Origin: an uncultured Ectothiorhodospiraceae bacterium
Lineage (GTDB): Bacteria; Pseudomonadota; Gammaproteobacteria; UBA9214
NCBI GenBank assembly: GCA_947258615.1
Contig: CAMYIX010000043.1
Coordinates: forward strand, 1,825 to 65,824
Direction of reading: 5' to 3'
Length of the DNA stretch: 64,000 nt
Below, one piece after another: positions 12,020 through 18,245 of this stretch. Below the pieces are notes generated by a model that worked only from the letters and a program-made list of their open reading frames with translations, was not told where the DNA came from and made no database searches. How positions within the stretch are numbered: the first letter of the stretch is position 1; each line of letters begins with the position of its first letter. A program made the translations under genes and the position numbers.

Positions 12020-13012
12020 ATGAAGGTTGCTGATAAAAAACGCTTGTTACGCGAGATGCTGTTTGCCCGGCGTTTCGAGGAACGCTGTTACGAGGCCTAC
12101 GTCGAACGCAACATCGGCGGTTTCCTGCATCTCTACCCTGGCGAGGAGGCCTGTGCCCATGGGGTACTGGAAGCGGCGGAGATGGACGGCGACTACGTCA
12201 TCACCAGTTACCGCGATCACGTCCATGCCATCAAGTGGGGAGCCGACCCCAGGGAAGTCATGGCTGAGCTGTATGCCAAGGAGACCGGCGTCAGCAAGGG
12301 GCGCGGCGGCTCCATGCATATCTTCGATGTCAACAACCGCTTCATGGGTGGATACGCCCTGGTCGGCGGGCCGTTCCCGCTGGCTGCCGGCATCGCCAAG
12401 GCCATCCAGATGAAGCAGGGCAAGGAAATCTGCATCTGTTTTCTCGGCGATGCCGCCAACAACCAGGGCACCTTCCATGAATCATTGAACATGGCCAAGC
12501 TCTGGAACCTGCCGGTCCTCTATGTGTGTGAAAACAATCTCTATGGCATCGGTACCCGCATCGACCGTTCCACGGCCGTGGTGGAGCAGTACAAACGGGT
12601 GTCGGCCTATAACATCCCGTCGGCCCAGGAAGATGGCCAGGATGTCGAAAAGGTCTACAAGGCGGCAACCAAGGCCATCAAGCATGTACGCTCCGGCAAG
12701 GGCCCCTATTTTCTCGAACTGATGACCTACCGCTACCGCGGCCACTCGATGTCGGACTCCAATGCCTACCGCGCCAGGGCGGAGGAACGTATGTGGAGCA
12801 AGCGTGACCCCATCATCATGCTGCGTGATCGCCTGGTCGGGGACGGTCATCTGACCAAGGAAGAATACACGGACATGGATACCGAAATCCTGGACGAGAT
12901 CGAAAACGAGGTGATTGCCTTCGCCAGCGAGTCGCCCGAACCGCAGGTATCGGAAGTCGAACGCTATGTTCTTGCAGAGAATGACCCATGGGTCAGGGGC
13001 GGGGTGCAGTAA
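12020..13012 (+). CDS. pdhA: Pyruvate/2-oxoacid dehydrogenase E1 component, alpha subunit
   Basis: LREMLFARRFEERCYEAYVERNIGGFLHLYPGEEA...GGSMH...GDAANNQGTFHESLNMA...YRYRGHSMSD, carrying the ThDP-binding motif. Confidence 0.9.
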   Translation: MKVADKKRLLREMLFARRFEERCYEAYVERNIGGFLHLYPGEEACAHGVLEAAEMDGDYVITSYRDHVHAIKWGADPREVMAELYAKETGVSKGRGGSMHIFDVNNRFMGGYALVGGPFPLAAGIAKAIQMKQGKEICICFLGDAANNQGTFHESLNMAKLWNLPVLYVCENNLYGIGTRIDRSTAVVEQYKRVSAYNIPSAQEDGQDVEKVYKAATKAIKHVRSGKGPYFLELMTYRYRGHSMSDSNAYRARAEERMWSKRDPIIMLRDRLVGDGHLTKEEYTDMDTEILDEIENEVIAFASESPEPQVSEVERYVLAENDPWVRGGVQ

Positions 13013-13993
13013 ATGGCTGAAATCATGTTCTGGGAGGCAGTGCTGCGCGCCCATGATGAAGAGCTGGCCAATGACCCGATGGTGCTGGTCATGGGCGAGG
13101 ATGTCGGCGTGGTCGGCGGCACCTACAAGGCAACGCTGGGACTCTACGACAAGTACGGCGAAGAGCGGGTCATCGATACGCCGATTTCCGAAAACGGTTT
13201 TACCGGCCTGGGTATCGGCGCCTCCTTCCTGGGTGCGCGTCCCATCATCGAGATCATGTCGGTGAACTTCGCCTGGCTGGCGATGGACCAGATATTCAAC
13301 ACCGCGGCCAAGGTGCGCTACATGTCGGGTGGCCAGCTGGAGGCGCCGGTGGTGATACGTTCGCCGGGCGGCACCGCGCACCAGCTCGGTTCGCAGCACT
13401 CGGCACGCATGGAGAAGGTGTTCATGGGGATCGCCGGTCTGCGTGTAGTCACACCGTCAAATCCGCGCCAGGCCTATGGCCTGCTGAAGTCGGCGGTGCG
13501 CTGCAATGACCCGGTGTTCATCAATGAACACGAACTCATGTACAACATGAAGGGCGAGATGCCGGAAGAGGAATACTTTCACCCGCTGGAGGGTTCCGAG
13601 ATCGTCAGGCCGGGGCGCGATGTGACCCTGTTCGGCTACAACATCTCCGTGCACTGGTGTCTGCAGGCCGCGGATCTGCTATCCAAACATCACGGTATCG
13701 AGGCCGAGGTCATCGACCTGTATGCCCTGAGTCCACTGGATCGTGCGGGCATCCGCGACTCGGTTACGCGCACCCATCGCGCAGTCATTGTCGAAGAGGC
13801 CGAGCCGATGGTGGGCGTGGGCGCGGAGGTGATGGCGATCATCAATGAAGAATGCTTCTTCGAACTGGATGCCGCGCCGGTCCGGGTTTCGGCACTGAAC
13901 GTGCCGATTCCCTACAACCACGCACTGGAGAAGACGGCCTTGCCGGATGCCAACGACGTGGTCGAGGTCGTGCGGACAATGTTCGGCGTCTGA
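13013..13993 (+). CDS. pdhB: Pyruvate/2-oxoacid dehydrogenase E1 component, beta subunit
   Basis: The start directly abuts the pdhA stop. The sequence reads VLVMGEDVGVVGGTYKATLGLYDKYGEERVIDTPISENGFTGLGIGA. Confidence 0.9.
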   Translation: MAEIMFWEAVLRAHDEELANDPMVLVMGEDVGVVGGTYKATLGLYDKYGEERVIDTPISENGFTGLGIGASFLGARPIIEIMSVNFAWLAMDQIFNTAAKVRYMSGGQLEAPVVIRSPGGTAHQLGSQHSARMEKVFMGIAGLRVVTPSNPRQAYGLLKSAVRCNDPVFINEHELMYNMKGEMPEEEYFHPLEGSEIVRPGRDVTLFGYNISVHWCLQAADLLSKHHGIEAEVIDLYALSPLDRAGIRDSVTRTHRAVIVEEAEPMVGVGAEVMAIINEECFFELDAAPVRVSALNVPIPYNHALEKTALPDANDVVEVVRTMFGV

Positions 13994-14013: not shown

Positions 14014-14148
14014 TTCACCGCAGAGACGCAGAGGACGCAGAGCACACAAAGACTAAGAATTACCAGCCAAAGCATTAACCCGAGCATCAACATTTGTCTG
14101 TGTTTTTTAAATTCTTGATCTCTGCGTCCTTTGCGTCTCTGCGGTGAG
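14014..14148. repeat. GCAGAG-type inverted-repeat element, copy A (simple form)
   Basis: Left arm ttcaccgcagagacgcagaggacgcagag (14014-14042). Right arm ctctgcgtcctttgcgtctctgcggtgag (14120-14148). An AT-rich 77-bp spacer separates them. Confidence 0.85.
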
Positions 14149-14178
14149 ATTCGAATTCCCATTAAGGAACGGCATTTC

Positions 14179-16842
14179 ATGTCTGAACCCTATGTAATCA
14201 AGATGCCCCAGCTCTCCGACACCATGACGGAAGGTGTTGTCGTCAGCTGGGAAAAGAATATCGGCGATCAAGTCAAGCGTGGCGACATTGTCGCAACGGT
14301 AGAGACCGACAAGGCCGTCATGGATGTAGAGGTGTTCCGCGACGGATTTCTGTCCGGCCCGATTGCACCGGTGGACGCCGTGGTCCCGGTGACCCACGCT
14401 ATGGGCTACCTGGTCGAATCCGCCGATGACGTGGTGCAGGGCGAGGCGGAACAGGCCGCCACGCCGAAGCCCGAAACGGCAGCGGCCGCTGCGCCGGCCG
14501 GGGCAGTCTCGGCACCGGTCACTCCCCAGGCCATTCCACCTGCTGCAGGCAGCACGGCACCGGCGCCGCGTCCGCAGGGTGGCAAGGCCACCCCGCTGGC
14601 GCGCAGGCTGGCCGGTCAGGTCAACGCCGATCTTGATCGCCTGAGTGGCACTGGCCCGGGTGGTGTGATCACGGCAGGCGATATCCAGCATGCCCCGGCC
14701 GCCTATGAGGTCGAGGTGCCGGGCAACGGACGGCCCATGAAGTCGATGGAAAAGGCCATCGCGCGCGCCATGACCACCTCGCTGACCATGCCGACCTTCC
14801 GGGTGAGTTCCCACATCCACCTGCAGACCCTGATGGCCGCCGCCAAGCAGCACGGCGTCTCGGTGACCGTGGCGATCGCGCGCGCCTGTGCGCTGGCCAT
14901 GAAGGAGCACCCCAAGATCAACTGGTGTTATCAGCCGGATGACAGGCTGATCGAGCGTGAGCAGGTCGATATCGGCATGGCGGTGGCCGCCGACGATGGC
15001 GGACTGGTCGTGCCCATCCTGCGCAATGTCGAGTCGCGCGACCTTGGTGAACTGAACAACGACTGGAAGGACCTGGTGGCGCGAGCACGCACCCGCCACT
15101 TGAACCCGGAGGAGTTCACCGGGGCCACCTTCCAGATATCCAACATGGGCATGTTCGACGTCAGCTACTTCGATGCGATTGCCACACCGGGGCTGGCGGC
15201 GATCCTGGCCATTTCCTCCAATACGGATAAGGGCAGCGCCTTCACCATCACGGCGGACCACCGGGTCATCAACGGGGCGGACGTGGCGAAATATCTCTAT
15301 TCCCTGAAGGGGCTGGTTGAACAGCCCTTCGACTGGATGGGGCCGGGTGGCCCGGCCATTCCCGAGGGCGACTGGGACTACGACGTGGTGGTAATCGGCG
15401 GCGGACCCGGTGGGGAAGACTGTGCCCGCGACCTGGTCGGCCATGGCCTGAAGGTCGCGCTGGTCAACGACTCAGCCTTCCCGGGGGGCGAATGCCTGTG
15501 GCGTGGCTGCATCCCCTCCAAGGCCTGGCGGGCGGCGGCCGATCGCATGCGCGACCGCGCCGAGGATGCCCACCTCGGTGTGACCGGGACCAACAAGGCC
15601 CGGCTGGTCTGGAAGGAGCTCGAGAAGACCCGGCGCGGTGTCCTCGAGACCCGCGGCGGCATGGCATTGAAGACCGACAAGGGCGTCAGGATCAACTATA
15701 TTCACGGTTTCGGGCAGTTTGTCGACGACCATCACCTGGCCATCCATACCTCCACCAACCAGGATGATCCGCATACCCGCGCGGCCATACCGACGGCCGA
15801 TCCGGAGAAGACCATCAGCTTCGGCTGCGCCGTGATTGCCACCGGTGCGCCGCCCTTCGTGCCGCCGATCCCCGGGGCCAGGGAAGGACTTGAAAATAAC
15901 GGCGTGCTGACCTCGGACACCGTGTGGGCTCTGGAGAGCCCGCCGAAGCGGCTCGCCGTGATCGGCGCCGGCGCCATCGGCGTGGAAATGGCGCAGATCT
16001 TCCAGGACTTCGGCAGCAGGGTCACCCTGCTGGAGGCGCAGGAGCGTATCCTGGCCGAGGTCGAGCCCGAGATCGCAAACAGCCTGGCGGCCATCCTCGC
16101 CGACGAGCCGCGCCTGGACGTGCATACCTCTGCCGCAGTGAACCGGATCTCCGGCGAACCCGGCGCCATGAAACTCGCCTATACCGATGTGCAGGGCAAG
16201 AAGCGCACCCTTACCGTGGACCATGTCATCATGGCCACCGGCAAGCGCCCGGTCCTGGACGGCCTGGGCCTGGAGGCGGCAGGCGTGGCCAGCGAGGCCG
16301 GCATTGTCACGGCCGATGCCCGCTGCCGTACCAATGTGCCGCACATCTTTGCCCTGGGTGATGTCATCGGCGGCCTGATGCTGGCGCACACGGCCGGACA
16401 CCAGGGGCGGGTATCGGCCGCCACCATCCTGGGCGAGAACATGAAGTACGACCAGGACAGGGACTGCGGCGTCATCTTCAGCCGGCCCCAGGCGGCCTTC
16501 GTGGGCCTGTCGGTCGCGCAGGCGAAGGCGCAGGGGATCGATGCCGTGGAGGTGAAGGTGCCCATGAATATCGATGCCAAGGCGATGATCAACAACGAGA
16601 CCCACGGCATGATCAAGATCGTGGCGGACAAGGCCACGCACCGGATCCTGGGGGTGCATTTCCTCGCTGACCACGCCGACACCCTGATCGGTGAGGCGGT
16701 GATGATGGTCTCCGGCAACCTGACGCTGGAACAGGTCGCCGAGGCGATCCACCCGCACCCGACCCAGACCGAACTGTTCGGCGACATGGCGCGCCGCCTG
16801 CTGTCACGCCTGCGCCGCAGCCGGAAAAAGGCGAAGGCCTGA
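14179..16842 (+). CDS. Fused dihydrolipoamide acyltransferase (E2) and dihydrolipoyl dehydrogenase (E3)
   Basis: One uninterrupted frame contains, in order: a lipoyl domain (VETDKAVMDVE), an Ala/Pro linker, a subunit-binding domain (ATPLARRLAGQVNADLDRLSGTGPGGVITAGDI), and an E2 catalytic domain ending DHRVINGADVAKYL. After a linker come the E3 FAD site DVVVIGGGPGG, the redox disulfide GGECLWRGCIPSK, the NAD site VIGAGAIGVE and the C-terminal HPHPTQTE dyad. The start was chosen at MSEPYVIKMP. Confidence 0.85.
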   Translation: MSEPYVIKMPQLSDTMTEGVVVSWEKNIGDQVKRGDIVATVETDKAVMDVEVFRDGFLSGPIAPVDAVVPVTHAMGYLVESADDVVQGEAEQAATPKPETAAAAAPAGAVSAPVTPQAIPPAAGSTAPAPRPQGGKATPLARRLAGQVNADLDRLSGTGPGGVITAGDIQHAPAAYEVEVPGNGRPMKSMEKAIARAMTTSLTMPTFRVSSHIHLQTLMAAAKQHGVSVTVAIARACALAMKEHPKINWCYQPDDRLIEREQVDIGMAVAADDGGLVVPILRNVESRDLGELNNDWKDLVARARTRHLNPEEFTGATFQISNMGMFDVSYFDAIATPGLAAILAISSNTDKGSAFTITADHRVINGADVAKYLYSLKGLVEQPFDWMGPGGPAIPEGDWDYDVVVIGGGPGGEDCARDLVGHGLKVALVNDSAFPGGECLWRGCIPSKAWRAAADRMRDRAEDAHLGVTGTNKARLVWKELEKTRRGVLETRGGMALKTDKGVRINYIHGFGQFVDDHHLAIHTSTNQDDPHTRAAIPTADPEKTISFGCAVIATGAPPFVPPIPGAREGLENNGVLTSDTVWALESPPKRLAVIGAGAIGVEMAQIFQDFGSRVTLLEAQERILAEVEPEIANSLAAILADEPRLDVHTSAAVNRISGEPGAMKLAYTDVQGKKRTLTVDHVIMATGKRPVLDGLGLEAAGVASEAGIVTADARCRTNVPHIFALGDVIGGLMLAHTAGHQGRVSAATILGENMKYDQDRDCGVIFSRPQAAFVGLSVAQAKAQGIDAVEVKVPMNIDAKAMINNETHGMIKIVADKATHRILGVHFLADHADTLIGEAVMMVSGNLTLEQVAEAIHPHPTQTELFGDMARRLLSRLRRSRKKAKA

Positions 16843-16851
16843 AACAGATTA

Positions 16852-17007
16852 TTCACCGCAGAGACGCAGAGAGCGCAAAGAACATCAAATAAATGATTGC
16901 TTATGATGTGTTCAGGATGCCTGGCAGCCGATACAAGCAGGAATCAATTATTGTTTTTCTTATTTCTAAATGTTTTTACTTTGCGCTCTCTGCGTCTCTG
17001 CGGTGAA
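16852..17007. repeat. GCAGAG-type inverted-repeat element, copy B (simple form)
   Basis: Arms ttcaccgcagagacgcagagagcgcaaag (16852-16880) and ctttgcgctctctgcgtctctgcggtgaa (16979-17007). Confidence 0.85.

Positions 17008-17033: not shown

Positions 17034-18245
<1,212 letters not shown>

What the first reader, a model, noticed from the sequence alone, without database searches (positions are those of the whole stretch)
14179..16842. E2 acyltransferase and E3 dihydrolipoyl dehydrogenase fused into one polypeptide
After pdhA and pdhB, a single 888-codon frame contains a complete E2: lipoyl domain with ETDKA, subunit-binding domain, and catalytic domain with DHRVINGAD. It continues through the linker FDWMGPGGPAIPEGDWDY, without a stop or frame change, into a complete E3. 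The E3 part has GGGPGG, the redox-active CLWRGC, GAGAIGVE and the C-terminal HPHPTQTE. The junction is near nt 15340-15385.

In textbook complexes E2 and E3 are separate proteins, and E3 docks on the E2 subunit-binding domain. A covalent fusion would fix the E2:E3 stoichiometry at 1:1. It also raises the question of what the retained binding domain now binds.

The redox motif reads C-L-W-R-G-C, against the common C-L-N-V-G-C.
Basis: partly seen in the sequence, partly recalled or inferred. Interest (0 to 1): 0.6.

Follow-up and report, generated by a model that had tools for sequence, protein, structure and literature searches.

The report
Fused E2-E3 pyruvate dehydrogenase subunit
One real, conserved gene encodes both the acetyl-transferring core (E2) and the lipoamide-reoxidising flavoenzyme (E3) of a pyruvate dehydrogenase complex; the design is common in sulfur-oxidising Gammaproteobacteria and, as I recall, was first described in 1997, so it is a known curiosity whose assembly is still unsolved.

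Summary
Window 14179-16842 (+) is one stop-free 887-codon gene directly after E1 alpha and E1 beta. Its domains are lipoyl, subunit-binding (PSBD), E2 acyltransferase and a complete E3.

It is not an assembly error. All 80 related loci fetched from other species' genomes keep both halves in one frame. About 60 of 300 genomes sampled across the class carry it, in the same E1a-E1b-fusion-argG order. All catalytic residues of both halves are invariant.

Three refinements:
- The "linker" is mostly not a linker. FDWM is the normal E2 C-terminal helix, and AIPEGDWDY is the N-terminal cap of a special CLWRGC E3 subfamily that also exists as stand-alone proteins. Only about five residues (GPGGP) are fusion-specific, and they are strongly conserved and predicted ordered.
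- This E3 is only 32% identical to the genome's ordinary Lpd, which sits unfused next to sucB. It scores below NCBI's lipoamide-dehydrogenase cut-off.
- At least eight other deeply divergent protein clusters have the same five-domain fusion.

From memory, such a fusion was published for Thiobacillus ferrooxidans in 1997; the library does not hold that paper. Verdict: real, functional and already known in kind. How it assembles remains open.

The parts
12020..13012 (+). pdhA, E1 alpha subunit (330 aa)
   Evidence: Pfam E1_dh 279 bits. NCBIfam TIGR03182 PDH_E1_alph_y scores 407.6, above its cut-off of 393.85.
13013..13993 (+). pdhB, E1 beta subunit (326 aa)
   Evidence: Pfam Transket_pyr plus Transketolase_C. 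NCBIfam NF006667 scores 368, above its cut-off of 321.
14015..14147 (.). Inverted-repeat element in the pdhB / E2-E3 spacer (28-nt arms, 96% complementary). It is not part of the gene.
   Evidence: The right arm overlaps the alternative TTG start at 14131, which favours ATG 14179 as the true start.
14165..14168 (+). Shine-Dalgarno-like AGGA, 10 nt before the ATG
   Evidence: Read directly from the sequence.
14179..16842 (+). E2-E3 fusion gene (887 aa plus stop, 94.1 kDa)
   Evidence: Orthologues are in one frame in 80/80 loci.
14197..14385 (+). Lipoyl domain (residues 7-69; lipoyl-Lys45 at 14311-14313)
   Evidence: Pfam Biotin_lipoyl. K45 is invariant in 35/35 sequences.
14416..14583 (+). Ala/Pro-rich flexible linker (residues about 80-135)
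   Evidence: Column conservation 0.44. pLDDT is below 50 for residues 91-126, with 10-residue block means of 25-30.
14584..14688 (+). Peripheral-subunit-binding domain (residues 136-170)
   Evidence: Pfam E3_binding scores 42.6, above its cut-off of 23.7. Conservation 0.70 and R142 invariant.
14731..15339 (+). E2 acyltransferase catalytic domain (residues 185-387). Catalytic DHR is at 15256-15264. It ends with the short C-terminal helix FDWM.
   Evidence: Pfam 2-oxoacid_dh 162 bits. S321, D360 and H361 are invariant. The model has a helix at 384-387. The best solved relatives are mitochondrial-type E2p.
15340..15378 (+). Junction GPGGPAIPEGDWD (residues 388-400). GPGGP is the fusion-specific connector. 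AIPEGDW is the N-terminal cap of the CLWRGC E3 subfamily.
   Evidence: Conservation 0.85 and length fixed to within one residue. Block-mean pLDDT 85-90. The IPxGxWDYDV motif is also present in stand-alone relatives.
15379..16839 (+). E3 (dihydrolipoyl-dehydrogenase-like flavoprotein, residues 401-887). Redox CLWRGC is at 15493-15510, the NAD GxGxxG at 15964-15981 and the His-Glu dyad HPHPTQTE at 16750-16773.
   Evidence: Pfam Pyr_redox_2 and Pyr_redox_dim. The best NCBIfam model, TIGR01350, scores 367.4, below its cut-off of 408.8. The best PDB sequence hit is Lpd 1ebd. The top 50 Foldseek hits are all Lpd. Catalytic residues are invariant.
16852..17007 (.). Second inverted-repeat element between the fusion gene and argG (29-nt arms, 100% complementary)
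17034..18245 (+). argG, the conserved downstream neighbour
   Evidence: ORF. It lies downstream of the fusion in 67 of 80 loci.

Best explanation
This is a genuine, vertically inherited gene for a bifunctional E2-E3 subunit of a pyruvate dehydrogenase complex with a heterotetrameric (alpha2beta2) E1.

Proposed cycle:
1. E1 (PdhA/PdhB) decarboxylates pyruvate and acetylates the lipoyl-Lys45 of the N-terminal lipoyl domain.
2. The lipoyl domain swings on a flexible Ala/Pro linker of about 55 residues to the E2 catalytic domain (His361/Ser321), which makes acetyl-CoA.
3. The reduced lipoyl group is reoxidised by the covalently attached E3 domain (Cys439/Cys444, FAD, and His858/Glu865 from the partner chain), which passes electrons to NAD+.

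The E3 belongs to a distinct CLWRGC subfamily dedicated to this complex. The cell's ordinary Lpd remains a separate protein beside sucB. The retained subunit-binding domain most likely docks E1.

The E2 domain forms trimers and the E3 domain must form dimers, and only about 5 ordered residues join them. E3 dimers are therefore expected to lie on the two-fold axes between E2 trimers.

Shown here: the gene structure, its conservation, intact catalytic residues and the family relationships. Inferred: enzyme activities, the E1 docking role of the PSBD and the quaternary structure.
For: - Single open frame with all five Pfam domains above cut-off.
- E1 alpha and E1 beta typed as pyruvate dehydrogenase above NCBIfam cut-offs.
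- More than 100 database clusters at 80% identity or more are all about 880 aa with all domains.
- 328 species loci were detected; the 80 fetched are all continuous through the junction.
- About 60 of 300 genomes sampled evenly over the class have a full-length stop-free orthologue at 52-78% identity.
- Synteny E1a-E1b-fusion-argG is conserved.
- K45, S321, D360, H361, C439, C444, E619, H858, E865 and both GxGxxG motifs are invariant in 35 diverse sequences.
- Junction conservation is 0.85, higher than either catalytic domain, with block-mean pLDDT 85-90.
- The E3 half is closest to solved lipoamide dehydrogenases by sequence and by fold.
- A relative (P0245) joins a lipoyl domain directly to a CLWRGC E3, which supports a lipoyl substrate for this subfamily.
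- There is no Shine-Dalgarno sequence before the internal ATG at 15337, and that Met is Ile or Leu in 7 of 35 orthologues.
Against:
- The E3 half scores below the curated lipoamide-dehydrogenase cut-off, 367.4 against 408.8, with MerA close behind.
- It is only 32% identical to the genome's own Lpd.
- Stand-alone CLWRGC proteins lie in contexts without E1 or E2 genes, so the subfamily may have other roles.
- A canonical Lpd is available in the same genome and the PSBD is retained, so docking of a free E3 cannot be excluded.
- Two distant fused orthologues have long flexible linkers, so a rigid junction is not essential to the family.
- The monomer model gives no information on the oligomer.
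Confidence: 0.85

Rival explanations
1. Sequencing or assembly artefact. E2 and E3 are separate genes, and a missed stop or frameshift at the junction merged them in this metagenome-assembled genome.
For: The genome is a draft MAG, 65% complete in 87 contigs. Read-level confirmation was not possible. Some relatives do show frameshifted copies (G108 and G298).
Against: The identical in-frame junction occurs in 80/80 independently assembled species loci, including the isolate Thiohalobacter thiocyanaticus Hrh1 (L051) and a closed MAG chromosome (L006). The junction is more conserved than the flanking domains.
Confidence: 0.01
2. The gene is fused but the proteins are not. Internal translation initiation or proteolytic cleavage at the junction would yield ordinary separate E2 and E3, so the stoichiometry is not fixed.
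For: An ATG lies exactly at the end of E2 (15337). Gene callers sometimes start 'E3' proteins inside the junction (P0177 and P0181). The Gly/Pro stretch could be a protease site.
Against: There is no Shine-Dalgarno motif upstream of 15337. That codon is Ile or Leu in 7 of 35 orthologues. The junction is invariant in length and predicted ordered, not an exposed loop. Nothing obvious would select for an in-frame junction over such divergence if the products were made separately.
Confidence: 0.06
3. The C-terminal half is not the E3 of the PDH cycle. It would be a CLWRGC flavoprotein disulfide reductase with another substrate, while the ordinary Lpd docks on the retained PSBD and reoxidises lipoamide.
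For: It scores below the TIGR01350 cut-off, with MerA close behind. The W-R pair in the redox motif is unusual. Stand-alone homologues lie outside PDH contexts, one of them in a genome with no detectable E2. The PSBD is conserved. A canonical Lpd is present.
Against: All Lpd catalytic and cofactor residues are invariant. The best sequence and fold matches are lipoamide dehydrogenases. P0245 fuses a lipoyl domain directly to a CLWRGC E3. The PSBD is independently needed for E1. Two of the three PSBD arginines that, from memory, bind E3 in B. stearothermophilus are lost family-wide.
Confidence: 0.08

Closest known systems
E2-E3 fused subunit (PdhC) of the Thiobacillus (Acidithiobacillus) ferrooxidans pyruvate dehydrogenase complex. 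Powles & Rawlings, Microbiology 1997, 143:2189; cited from memory, as the paper is not in the held library.
   Same: The operon has E1 alpha, E1 beta and then one gene for E2 and E3, in a chemolithoautotrophic sulfur or iron oxidiser. The A. ferrooxidans genome paper lists only three genes, AFE3068-70, for pyruvate dehydrogenase.
   Different: I could not retrieve that sequence, so identity, junction type and redox motif were not compared. The window's protein has one lipoyl domain, and most relatives have two.
Bacillus (Geobacillus) stearothermophilus PDH: alpha2beta2 E1, 60-mer E2, and a PSBD that binds E1 or E3 (PDB 1ebd is E3 with PSBD)
   Same: Same E1 type and the same E2 domain order. 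1ebd E3 is the best solved sequence match to the E3 half, at 213.8 bits.
   Different: There E3 is a free dimer that competes with E1 for the PSBD. Here E3 is covalent. The canonical 'GR(I/V)' arginine of the PSBD is Val here, and the position that (from memory of the B. stearothermophilus sequence) holds R139 is Gly.
Mitochondrial-type E2p (60-mer; PDB 8piu, 6ct0)
   Same: These are the closest solved relatives of the E2 half, at 186-187 bits. The E1 alpha is the matching 'y' type. In that system the E2 PSBD binds E1, not E3 (established knowledge).
   Different: Mitochondria recruit E3 through a separate E3-binding protein. Here the E2 catalytic domain is about 20 residues shorter, with loops deleted, and carries E3 itself.
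Lipoamide dehydrogenases with an N-terminal lipoyl domain (Neisseria P64K, PDB 1bhy/1ojt; 5u25)
   Same: These are natural fusions of an E2-derived module to E3, and they rank among the top sequence matches.
   Different: They carry only a lipoyl domain, with no PSBD and no acyltransferase core. Their E3 is a canonical CLNVGC type.
Other E2-E3 fusion lineages in public data (representatives P0250, P0251, P0252, P0253, P0256, P0264, P0269, P0310)
   Same: They have the identical five-domain architecture by Pfam.
   Different: They are only 30-35% identical to the window's protein. They have ordinary Lpd-type redox motifs and long, variable linkers. Their E3 domains sit among unfused Lpds at several separate places in a tree, which suggests repeated fusion or fission.
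Engineered E2p nanocage with a domain fused to the E2 C-terminus (PDB 8eqn, BG505 UFO-E2p-L4P)
   Same: It shows that the E2 core tolerates a C-terminal extension. The entry matches the E2 half.
   Different: The added module is small (about 75 aa) and designed. From memory it sits inside the cage, where 60 E3 domains of 53 kDa could not fit.

Membership tests
2-oxoacid dehydrogenase E2 (dihydrolipoyl acyltransferase) | Lipoyl domain with the lipoyl-lysine in a DK motif | tested here: met
   Pfam Biotin_lipoyl scores 43.7, above 22.1. ETDKA Lys45 is invariant.
2-oxoacid dehydrogenase E2 (dihydrolipoyl acyltransferase) | Peripheral-subunit-binding domain | tested here: met
   Pfam E3_binding scores 42.6, above 23.7. 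Its binding partner was not tested.
2-oxoacid dehydrogenase E2 (dihydrolipoyl acyltransferase) | Catalytic domain with DHRxx(D/N)G His and the conserved Ser | tested here: met
   Pfam 2-oxoacid_dh scores 162.4, above 23. H361, D360 and S321 are invariant; N365 is present in 32/35.
Pyruvate-specific complex (PDH) rather than another 2-oxoacid dehydrogenase | E1 subunits pass the PDH equivalog or subfamily models | tested here: met
   TIGR03182 scores 407.6, above 393.85. NF006667 scores 368.1, above 321.
Pyruvate-specific complex (PDH) rather than another 2-oxoacid dehydrogenase | E2 passes a PDH acetyltransferase equivalog model | tested here: not met
   The best model, TIGR01349, scores 245.5 against a cut-off of 445. 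The E2 half is divergent and shortened. Substrate assignment rests on E1 and on the closest solved relatives being E2p.
Dihydrolipoyl dehydrogenase (E3, Lpd) | Score above the curated equivalog cut-off (TIGR01350) | tested here: not met
   It scores 367.4 against 408.8. The genome's own Lpd scores 512.2 as a control, and stand-alone P0197 scores 367.
Dihydrolipoyl dehydrogenase (E3, Lpd) | Redox-active Cx4C, C-terminal His-Glu dyad, FAD and NAD GxGxxG motifs, and an acidic residue for NAD | tested here: met
   C439, C444, H858, E865, G407/G409/G412, G596/G598/G601 and E619 are invariant in 35/35.
Dihydrolipoyl dehydrogenase (E3, Lpd) | Fold and nearest characterised relatives are Lpd | tested here: met
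   The top four PDB sequence hits are Lpd. The top 50 Foldseek hits are all Lpd, with TM 0.78-0.83 on the target.
Dihydrolipoyl dehydrogenase (E3, Lpd) | Dihydrolipoamide:NAD+ oxidoreductase activity | not testable with these tools
   Requires an enzyme assay.
Natural E2-E3 fused PDH subunit (T. ferrooxidans type) | E2 and E3 in one reading frame after E1 alpha and E1 beta, conserved in orthologues | tested here: met
Natural E2-E3 fused PDH subunit (T. ferrooxidans type) | Orthology to the published T. ferrooxidans protein | not tested
   The published sequence and paper were not retrievable.
Natural E2-E3 fused PDH subunit (T. ferrooxidans type) | Full-length fusion protein made in the cell | not testable with these tools

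The most novel reading that the evidence does not exclude
In the window's clade, only five ordered, invariant residues join the C-terminal inter-trimer helix of a trimer-forming E2 domain to the N-terminal cap of an obligately dimeric E3. The complex would then be a natural trimer-dimer fusion cage, with E3 dimers acting as structural edges between E2 trimers. From memory, the E2 C-terminus points into the canonical cage, where 60 E3 domains of 53 kDa cannot fit. If so, the core may be non-canonical: inverted, expanded or open. It would have no free E3 and would leave the PSBD to E1 alone.
Probability: 0.3. Interest if true: 0.6.

Novelty: new member of a known kind. Interest (0 to 1): 0.3.

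Why it matters
Pyruvate dehydrogenase complexes are the textbook example of a multi-enzyme machine built from separate E1, E2 and E3 proteins. In that design E1 and E3 compete for sites on E2.

A lineage in which E3 is permanently welded to E2 is a natural experiment on several points:
- stoichiometry;
- substrate channelling of the lipoyl arm;
- cage geometry, since a three-fold unit is fused to a two-fold unit.

This survey shows the design is not a one-off. It is present in about a fifth of the sampled gammaproteobacterial families. It uses its own E3 subfamily (CLWRGC). It coexists with a normal free Lpd serving the 2-oxoglutarate complex.

None of this changes the conclusion that the fusion itself is known. 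It does mark the family, including the cultured Thiohalobacter thiocyanaticus, as a good target for cryo-EM and enzymology.

Tried and rejected
- **Read-level check.** I substituted cross-species conservation.
- **Literature.** Seven searches found nothing on a PDH E2-E3 fusion; the 'E2-E3 fusion' hits concern ubiquitin enzymes. The 1997 paper could not be opened by DOI. The A. ferrooxidans genome paper lists only AFE3068-70, and its supplements hold none of the terms. PMC11021618 only names pdhC. The prior description therefore rests on my memory.
- **Internal start.** Rejected: there is no Shine-Dalgarno sequence and the Met is not conserved.
- **'Five exceptions'.** Five loci among the 80 seemed to lack the fusion. 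They merely have DHRVV(T/Y)G and are continuous. One search failed because of a file-name assumption.
- **C-terminal tail.** I considered whether the basic tail RRLLSRLRRSRKK is an extra appendage. It has the same length as the tail of the genome's own Lpd, so it is not an extension.
- **Stand-alone relatives.** I tried to learn the role of stand-alone CLWRGC proteins from one genome (G301). It has no E2 hit, but its Lpd lies near a contig end, so the result is inconclusive. Three of the 'stand-alone' proteins are truncated gene calls of fusions.
- **Model geometry.** Model coordinates and PAE are not exposed, so the geometry at the junction and the oligomer could not be measured.
- **Direction of change.** Whether fusion or fission came first within the CLWRGC clade is unresolved, because the base of the tree is a polytomy.
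Full report
**1. The observation**

The + strand is open from 14131 to 16842. The ATG at 14179 gives 887 residues plus a stop, 94.1 kDa. It is preceded by AGGA 10 nt upstream. The alternative TTG at 14131 lies inside the right arm of an intergenic inverted repeat.

Pfam finds five domains, each above its gathering score:
- Biotin_lipoyl, residues 7-69
- E3_binding, 136-170
- 2-oxoacid_dh, 185-387
- Pyr_redox_2, 401-743
- Pyr_redox_dim, 764-870

E1 alpha (12020-13012) and E1 beta (13013-13993) lie directly upstream. Both pass the NCBIfam pyruvate-dehydrogenase models: TIGR03182 scores 407.6 against a cut-off of 393.85, and NF006667 scores 368 against 321.

**2. It is not an artefact**

- A search of 5.8 billion proteins returned more than 100 clusters at 80% identity or more. 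All are about 880 aa with every domain.
- A scan of one genome per prokaryotic species found 328 loci encoding a relative. In all 80 that were fetched, the E2 and E3 parts are in one stop-free frame. These include the isolate Thiohalobacter thiocyanaticus Hrh1 (L051) and a closed MAG chromosome (L006).
- In an even sample of 300 genomes across the class (1-2 per family), about 60 have a full-length orthologue at 52-78% identity with open frames of 890-1140 aa.
- In that sample, the hits of about 30% identity with a stop inside are ordinary adjacent E2 and E3 genes.
- The order E1a-E1b-fusion-argG(-gloA) is kept wherever flanks exist: E1b in 70 and argG in 67 of 80 loci.

The named carriers are sulfur-oxidising Gammaproteobacteria: Ectothiorhodospiraceae, Thiohalobacter, Thiogranum, Sulfuriflexus, and Chromatiales and Thiotrichales MAGs. 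The window's nearest relatives are uncultured Ectothiorhodospiraceae MAGs at 90-92% identity.

**3. Both halves look functional**

In 35 diverse full-length sequences (alignment A1, down to 65% identity) the following are invariant:
- the lipoyl Lys45;
- the E2 residues Ser321, Asp360 and His361;
- the E3 redox Cys439 and Cys444;
- both GxGxxG motifs;
- the NAD-type Glu619;
- the His858/Glu865 dyad.

The E2 half is closest to solved mitochondrial-type 60-mer E2p (8piu and 6ct0, 186-187 bits). This fits the 'y'-type E1 alpha. The E3 half is closest to solved lipoamide dehydrogenases (1ebd, 213.8 bits). An AlphaFold2 model has mean pLDDT 76. Its 50 best Foldseek hits are all lipoamide dehydrogenases, each aligned to the E3 half only. 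No solved chain covers both halves.

**4. What the 'linker' really is**

Column conservation over residues 388-400 is 0.85. That is higher than the E2 catalytic domain (0.77) or E3 (0.81), and far above the true Ala/Pro linker (0.44). The junction length varies by at most one residue. The model gives 10-residue block means of pLDDT 85-90 across 381-410, against 25-30 within the flexible linker at 91-126. It shows a short helix at 384-387, which I read as the equivalent of the canonical C-terminal helix of E2.

I then searched with the E3 half alone. This revealed stand-alone proteins of about 500 aa at 61-70% identity. They share three features:
- the CLWRGC motif;
- the same basic C-terminal tail;
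- the motif IPxGxWDYDV, placed after a short variable leader.

So FDWM belongs to E2 and AIPEGDWDY belongs to this E3 subfamily. Only about GPGGP is specific to the fusion.

Twenty stand-alone sequences form their own supported clade inside the CLWRGC group. Their neighbours are not E1 or E2 genes. Two distant fused orthologues (L091, L095) have Ala/Pro/Ser-rich linkers, giving about 50-55 residues between the E2 C-terminus and the E3 FAD motif against 14 here. The tight junction is therefore the majority state but not obligatory.

**5. A dedicated, divergent E3**

The same genome has a classical sucA(partial)-sucB-lpd cluster on contig C51. There E2 ends normally (…EEPASMLLDI*) and Lpd is a separate protein with CLNAGC. 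Its scores are above the cut-offs: SucB 588 against 449, and Lpd 512 against 408.8.

By contrast the fused E3 half scores 367.4 on the same Lpd model. That is below the cut-off, and MerA follows at 305.7. The fused E3 half is only 32% identical to the genome's Lpd. The CLWRGC proteins are separated from the genome's other flavoprotein disulfide reductases by a very long branch. Their nearest neighbours among database representatives are unfused CLF(E/S/D)GC proteins.

Membership in the Lpd equivalog is therefore not met by score. It is met on every catalytic feature and on fold. One relative, P0245, joins a lipoyl domain directly to a CLWRGC E3 and an AhpD-like CMD domain. That supports a lipoyl-domain substrate for the subfamily.

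**6. How it most likely works**

1. E1 acetylates the lipoyl domain.
2. The domain swings on its flexible tether to the E2 active site, where acetyl-CoA is made.
3. It then swings to the covalently attached E3, which reoxidises it with NAD+.

This cycle is inferred from the intact parts. In complexes with alpha2beta2 E1, the PSBD binds E1 as well as E3 in B. stearothermophilus, and in mitochondria the E2 PSBD binds E1 (established knowledge). The retained and still conserved PSBD (0.70, R142 invariant) is therefore most simply the E1 dock.

Two positions fit a loss of E3 binding. From memory, R139 and R156 are arginines that contact E3 in the B. stearothermophilus PSBD. Here the equivalent positions are Gly/Ala and Val/Glu across the family. 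This is only suggestive.

E3 active sites are built across a dimer and E2 cores are built from trimers (established knowledge). The short ordered junction therefore implies E3 dimers on the two-fold axes between trimers. Whether the result is a canonical 24- or 60-mer decorated on its edges or a different assembly cannot be decided here.

An internal start is unlikely. There is no Shine-Dalgarno sequence before ATG 15337, and that codon is Ile or Leu in 7 of 35 orthologues.

**7. Comparison with what is known**

From memory, Powles and Rawlings (Microbiology 1997) reported 'an unusual E2-E3 subunit fusion' in the Thiobacillus ferrooxidans PDH complex. I could not open or find that paper, or any paper citing it, in the held library. 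The A. ferrooxidans genome paper assigns pyruvate dehydrogenase to just three genes, AFE3068-70. That is consistent with a fusion but proves nothing.

Independently of that, an exhaustive HMMER search of 1.84 billion cluster representatives gave two results:
- The CLWRGC fusions collapse into one 50%-identity cluster (P0240).
- At least eight other clusters at 30-35% identity to the query have the same five-domain architecture. They carry ordinary Lpd motifs and long, variable linkers.

Their E3 domains sit next to unfused Lpds at several separate places in a quick tree. Examples are P0250 with P0380 and P0253 with P0353. The fusion, or its fission, has probably happened repeatedly.

Earlier notes of this scan describe the same family in other genomes and reach the same reading. 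I treated them as leads and re-derived the evidence here.

**8. Verdict**

The gene is real, conserved and almost certainly functional. It is a new member of a known kind. The points added here are these:
- how common the fusion is;
- that its E3 is a distinct subfamily with stand-alone relatives;
- that the apparent linker is largely structured;
- that the organism keeps a normal free Lpd for its 2-oxoglutarate complex.

The open question is structural: how a trimer-dimer fusion with a 5-residue connector assembles.

Noticed in passing
window 14015-14147 and 16852-17007: Two copies of an inverted-repeat element with (CGCAGAG)-type arms (28-29 nt arms, 96-100% complementary, AT-rich spacers of 77-98 nt).
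   Followed up: partly
P0197, P0200, P0233 and 17 others; loci L088, L089, L090: These are stand-alone CLWRGC flavoproteins of about 500 aa at 61-70% identity to the fused E3. They have the IPxGxWDYDV cap and the same basic tail, and they lie in contexts without E1 or E2 genes. One host genome (G301) shows no E2 acyltransferase hit at all. Their function is unknown.
   Followed up: partly
P0245 (797 aa, from the representative library): This protein has a lipoyl domain, a CLWRGC E3 and a C-terminal AhpD-like CMD domain (CxxC) in one chain. From memory, this recalls the mycobacterial Lpd-DlaT-AhpD peroxide-reducing relay compressed into a single protein.
   Followed up: partly
P0250, P0251, P0252, P0253, P0256, P0264, P0269, P0310: Eight further clusters at 30-35% identity to the query have the full lipoyl, PSBD, E2 and E3 architecture but ordinary Lpd redox motifs and long linkers. 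In a quick tree their E3 domains are scattered among unfused Lpds, which suggests repeated fusion or fission.
   Followed up: partly
L091 (G096:C8) and L095 (G293:C99): These fused orthologues have long Ala/Pro/Ser-rich flexible linkers in place of the tight GPxGP junction. L095 has also lost the IPEGDW cap.
   Followed up: no
own genome contig C51:1-6292: A classical sucA (cut by the contig end), sucB and lpd cluster has separate E2 and E3, so the organism runs one fused and one unfused 2-oxoacid dehydrogenase system side by side.
   Followed up: yes
L010, L012, L072: MAGs labelled 'Halobacteria archaeon' carry this gammaproteobacterial operon at 80-84% identity with the same neighbours. They are probably mis-binned or mislabelled records.
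   Followed up: no
window 14731-15339 (E2 catalytic domain): The acyltransferase domain is about 20 residues shorter than the Pfam model and mitochondrial E2p. Loops are deleted, notably before the DHR motif ('ISSNTDKGSAFTITADHR'). The domain scores only 154-162 bits in this family (P0001 and P0240), against 230-274 bits in the other fusion lineages.
   Followed up: no
loci L029-L080 versus L001-L028: There are two size classes of the fusion. One has a single lipoyl domain (about 880-900 aa; the window's clade). The other has two (about 1010-1080 aa; Thiohalobacter, Thiogranum, Sulfuriflexus and others).
   Followed up: partly
P0270, P0271, P0272, P0311, P0352: These unfused flavoproteins of about 465-477 aa have a CLF(E/S/D)GC redox motif and are the nearest sister group (support 99) of the CLWRGC clade among the library representatives. 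Their function is unknown.
   Followed up: no
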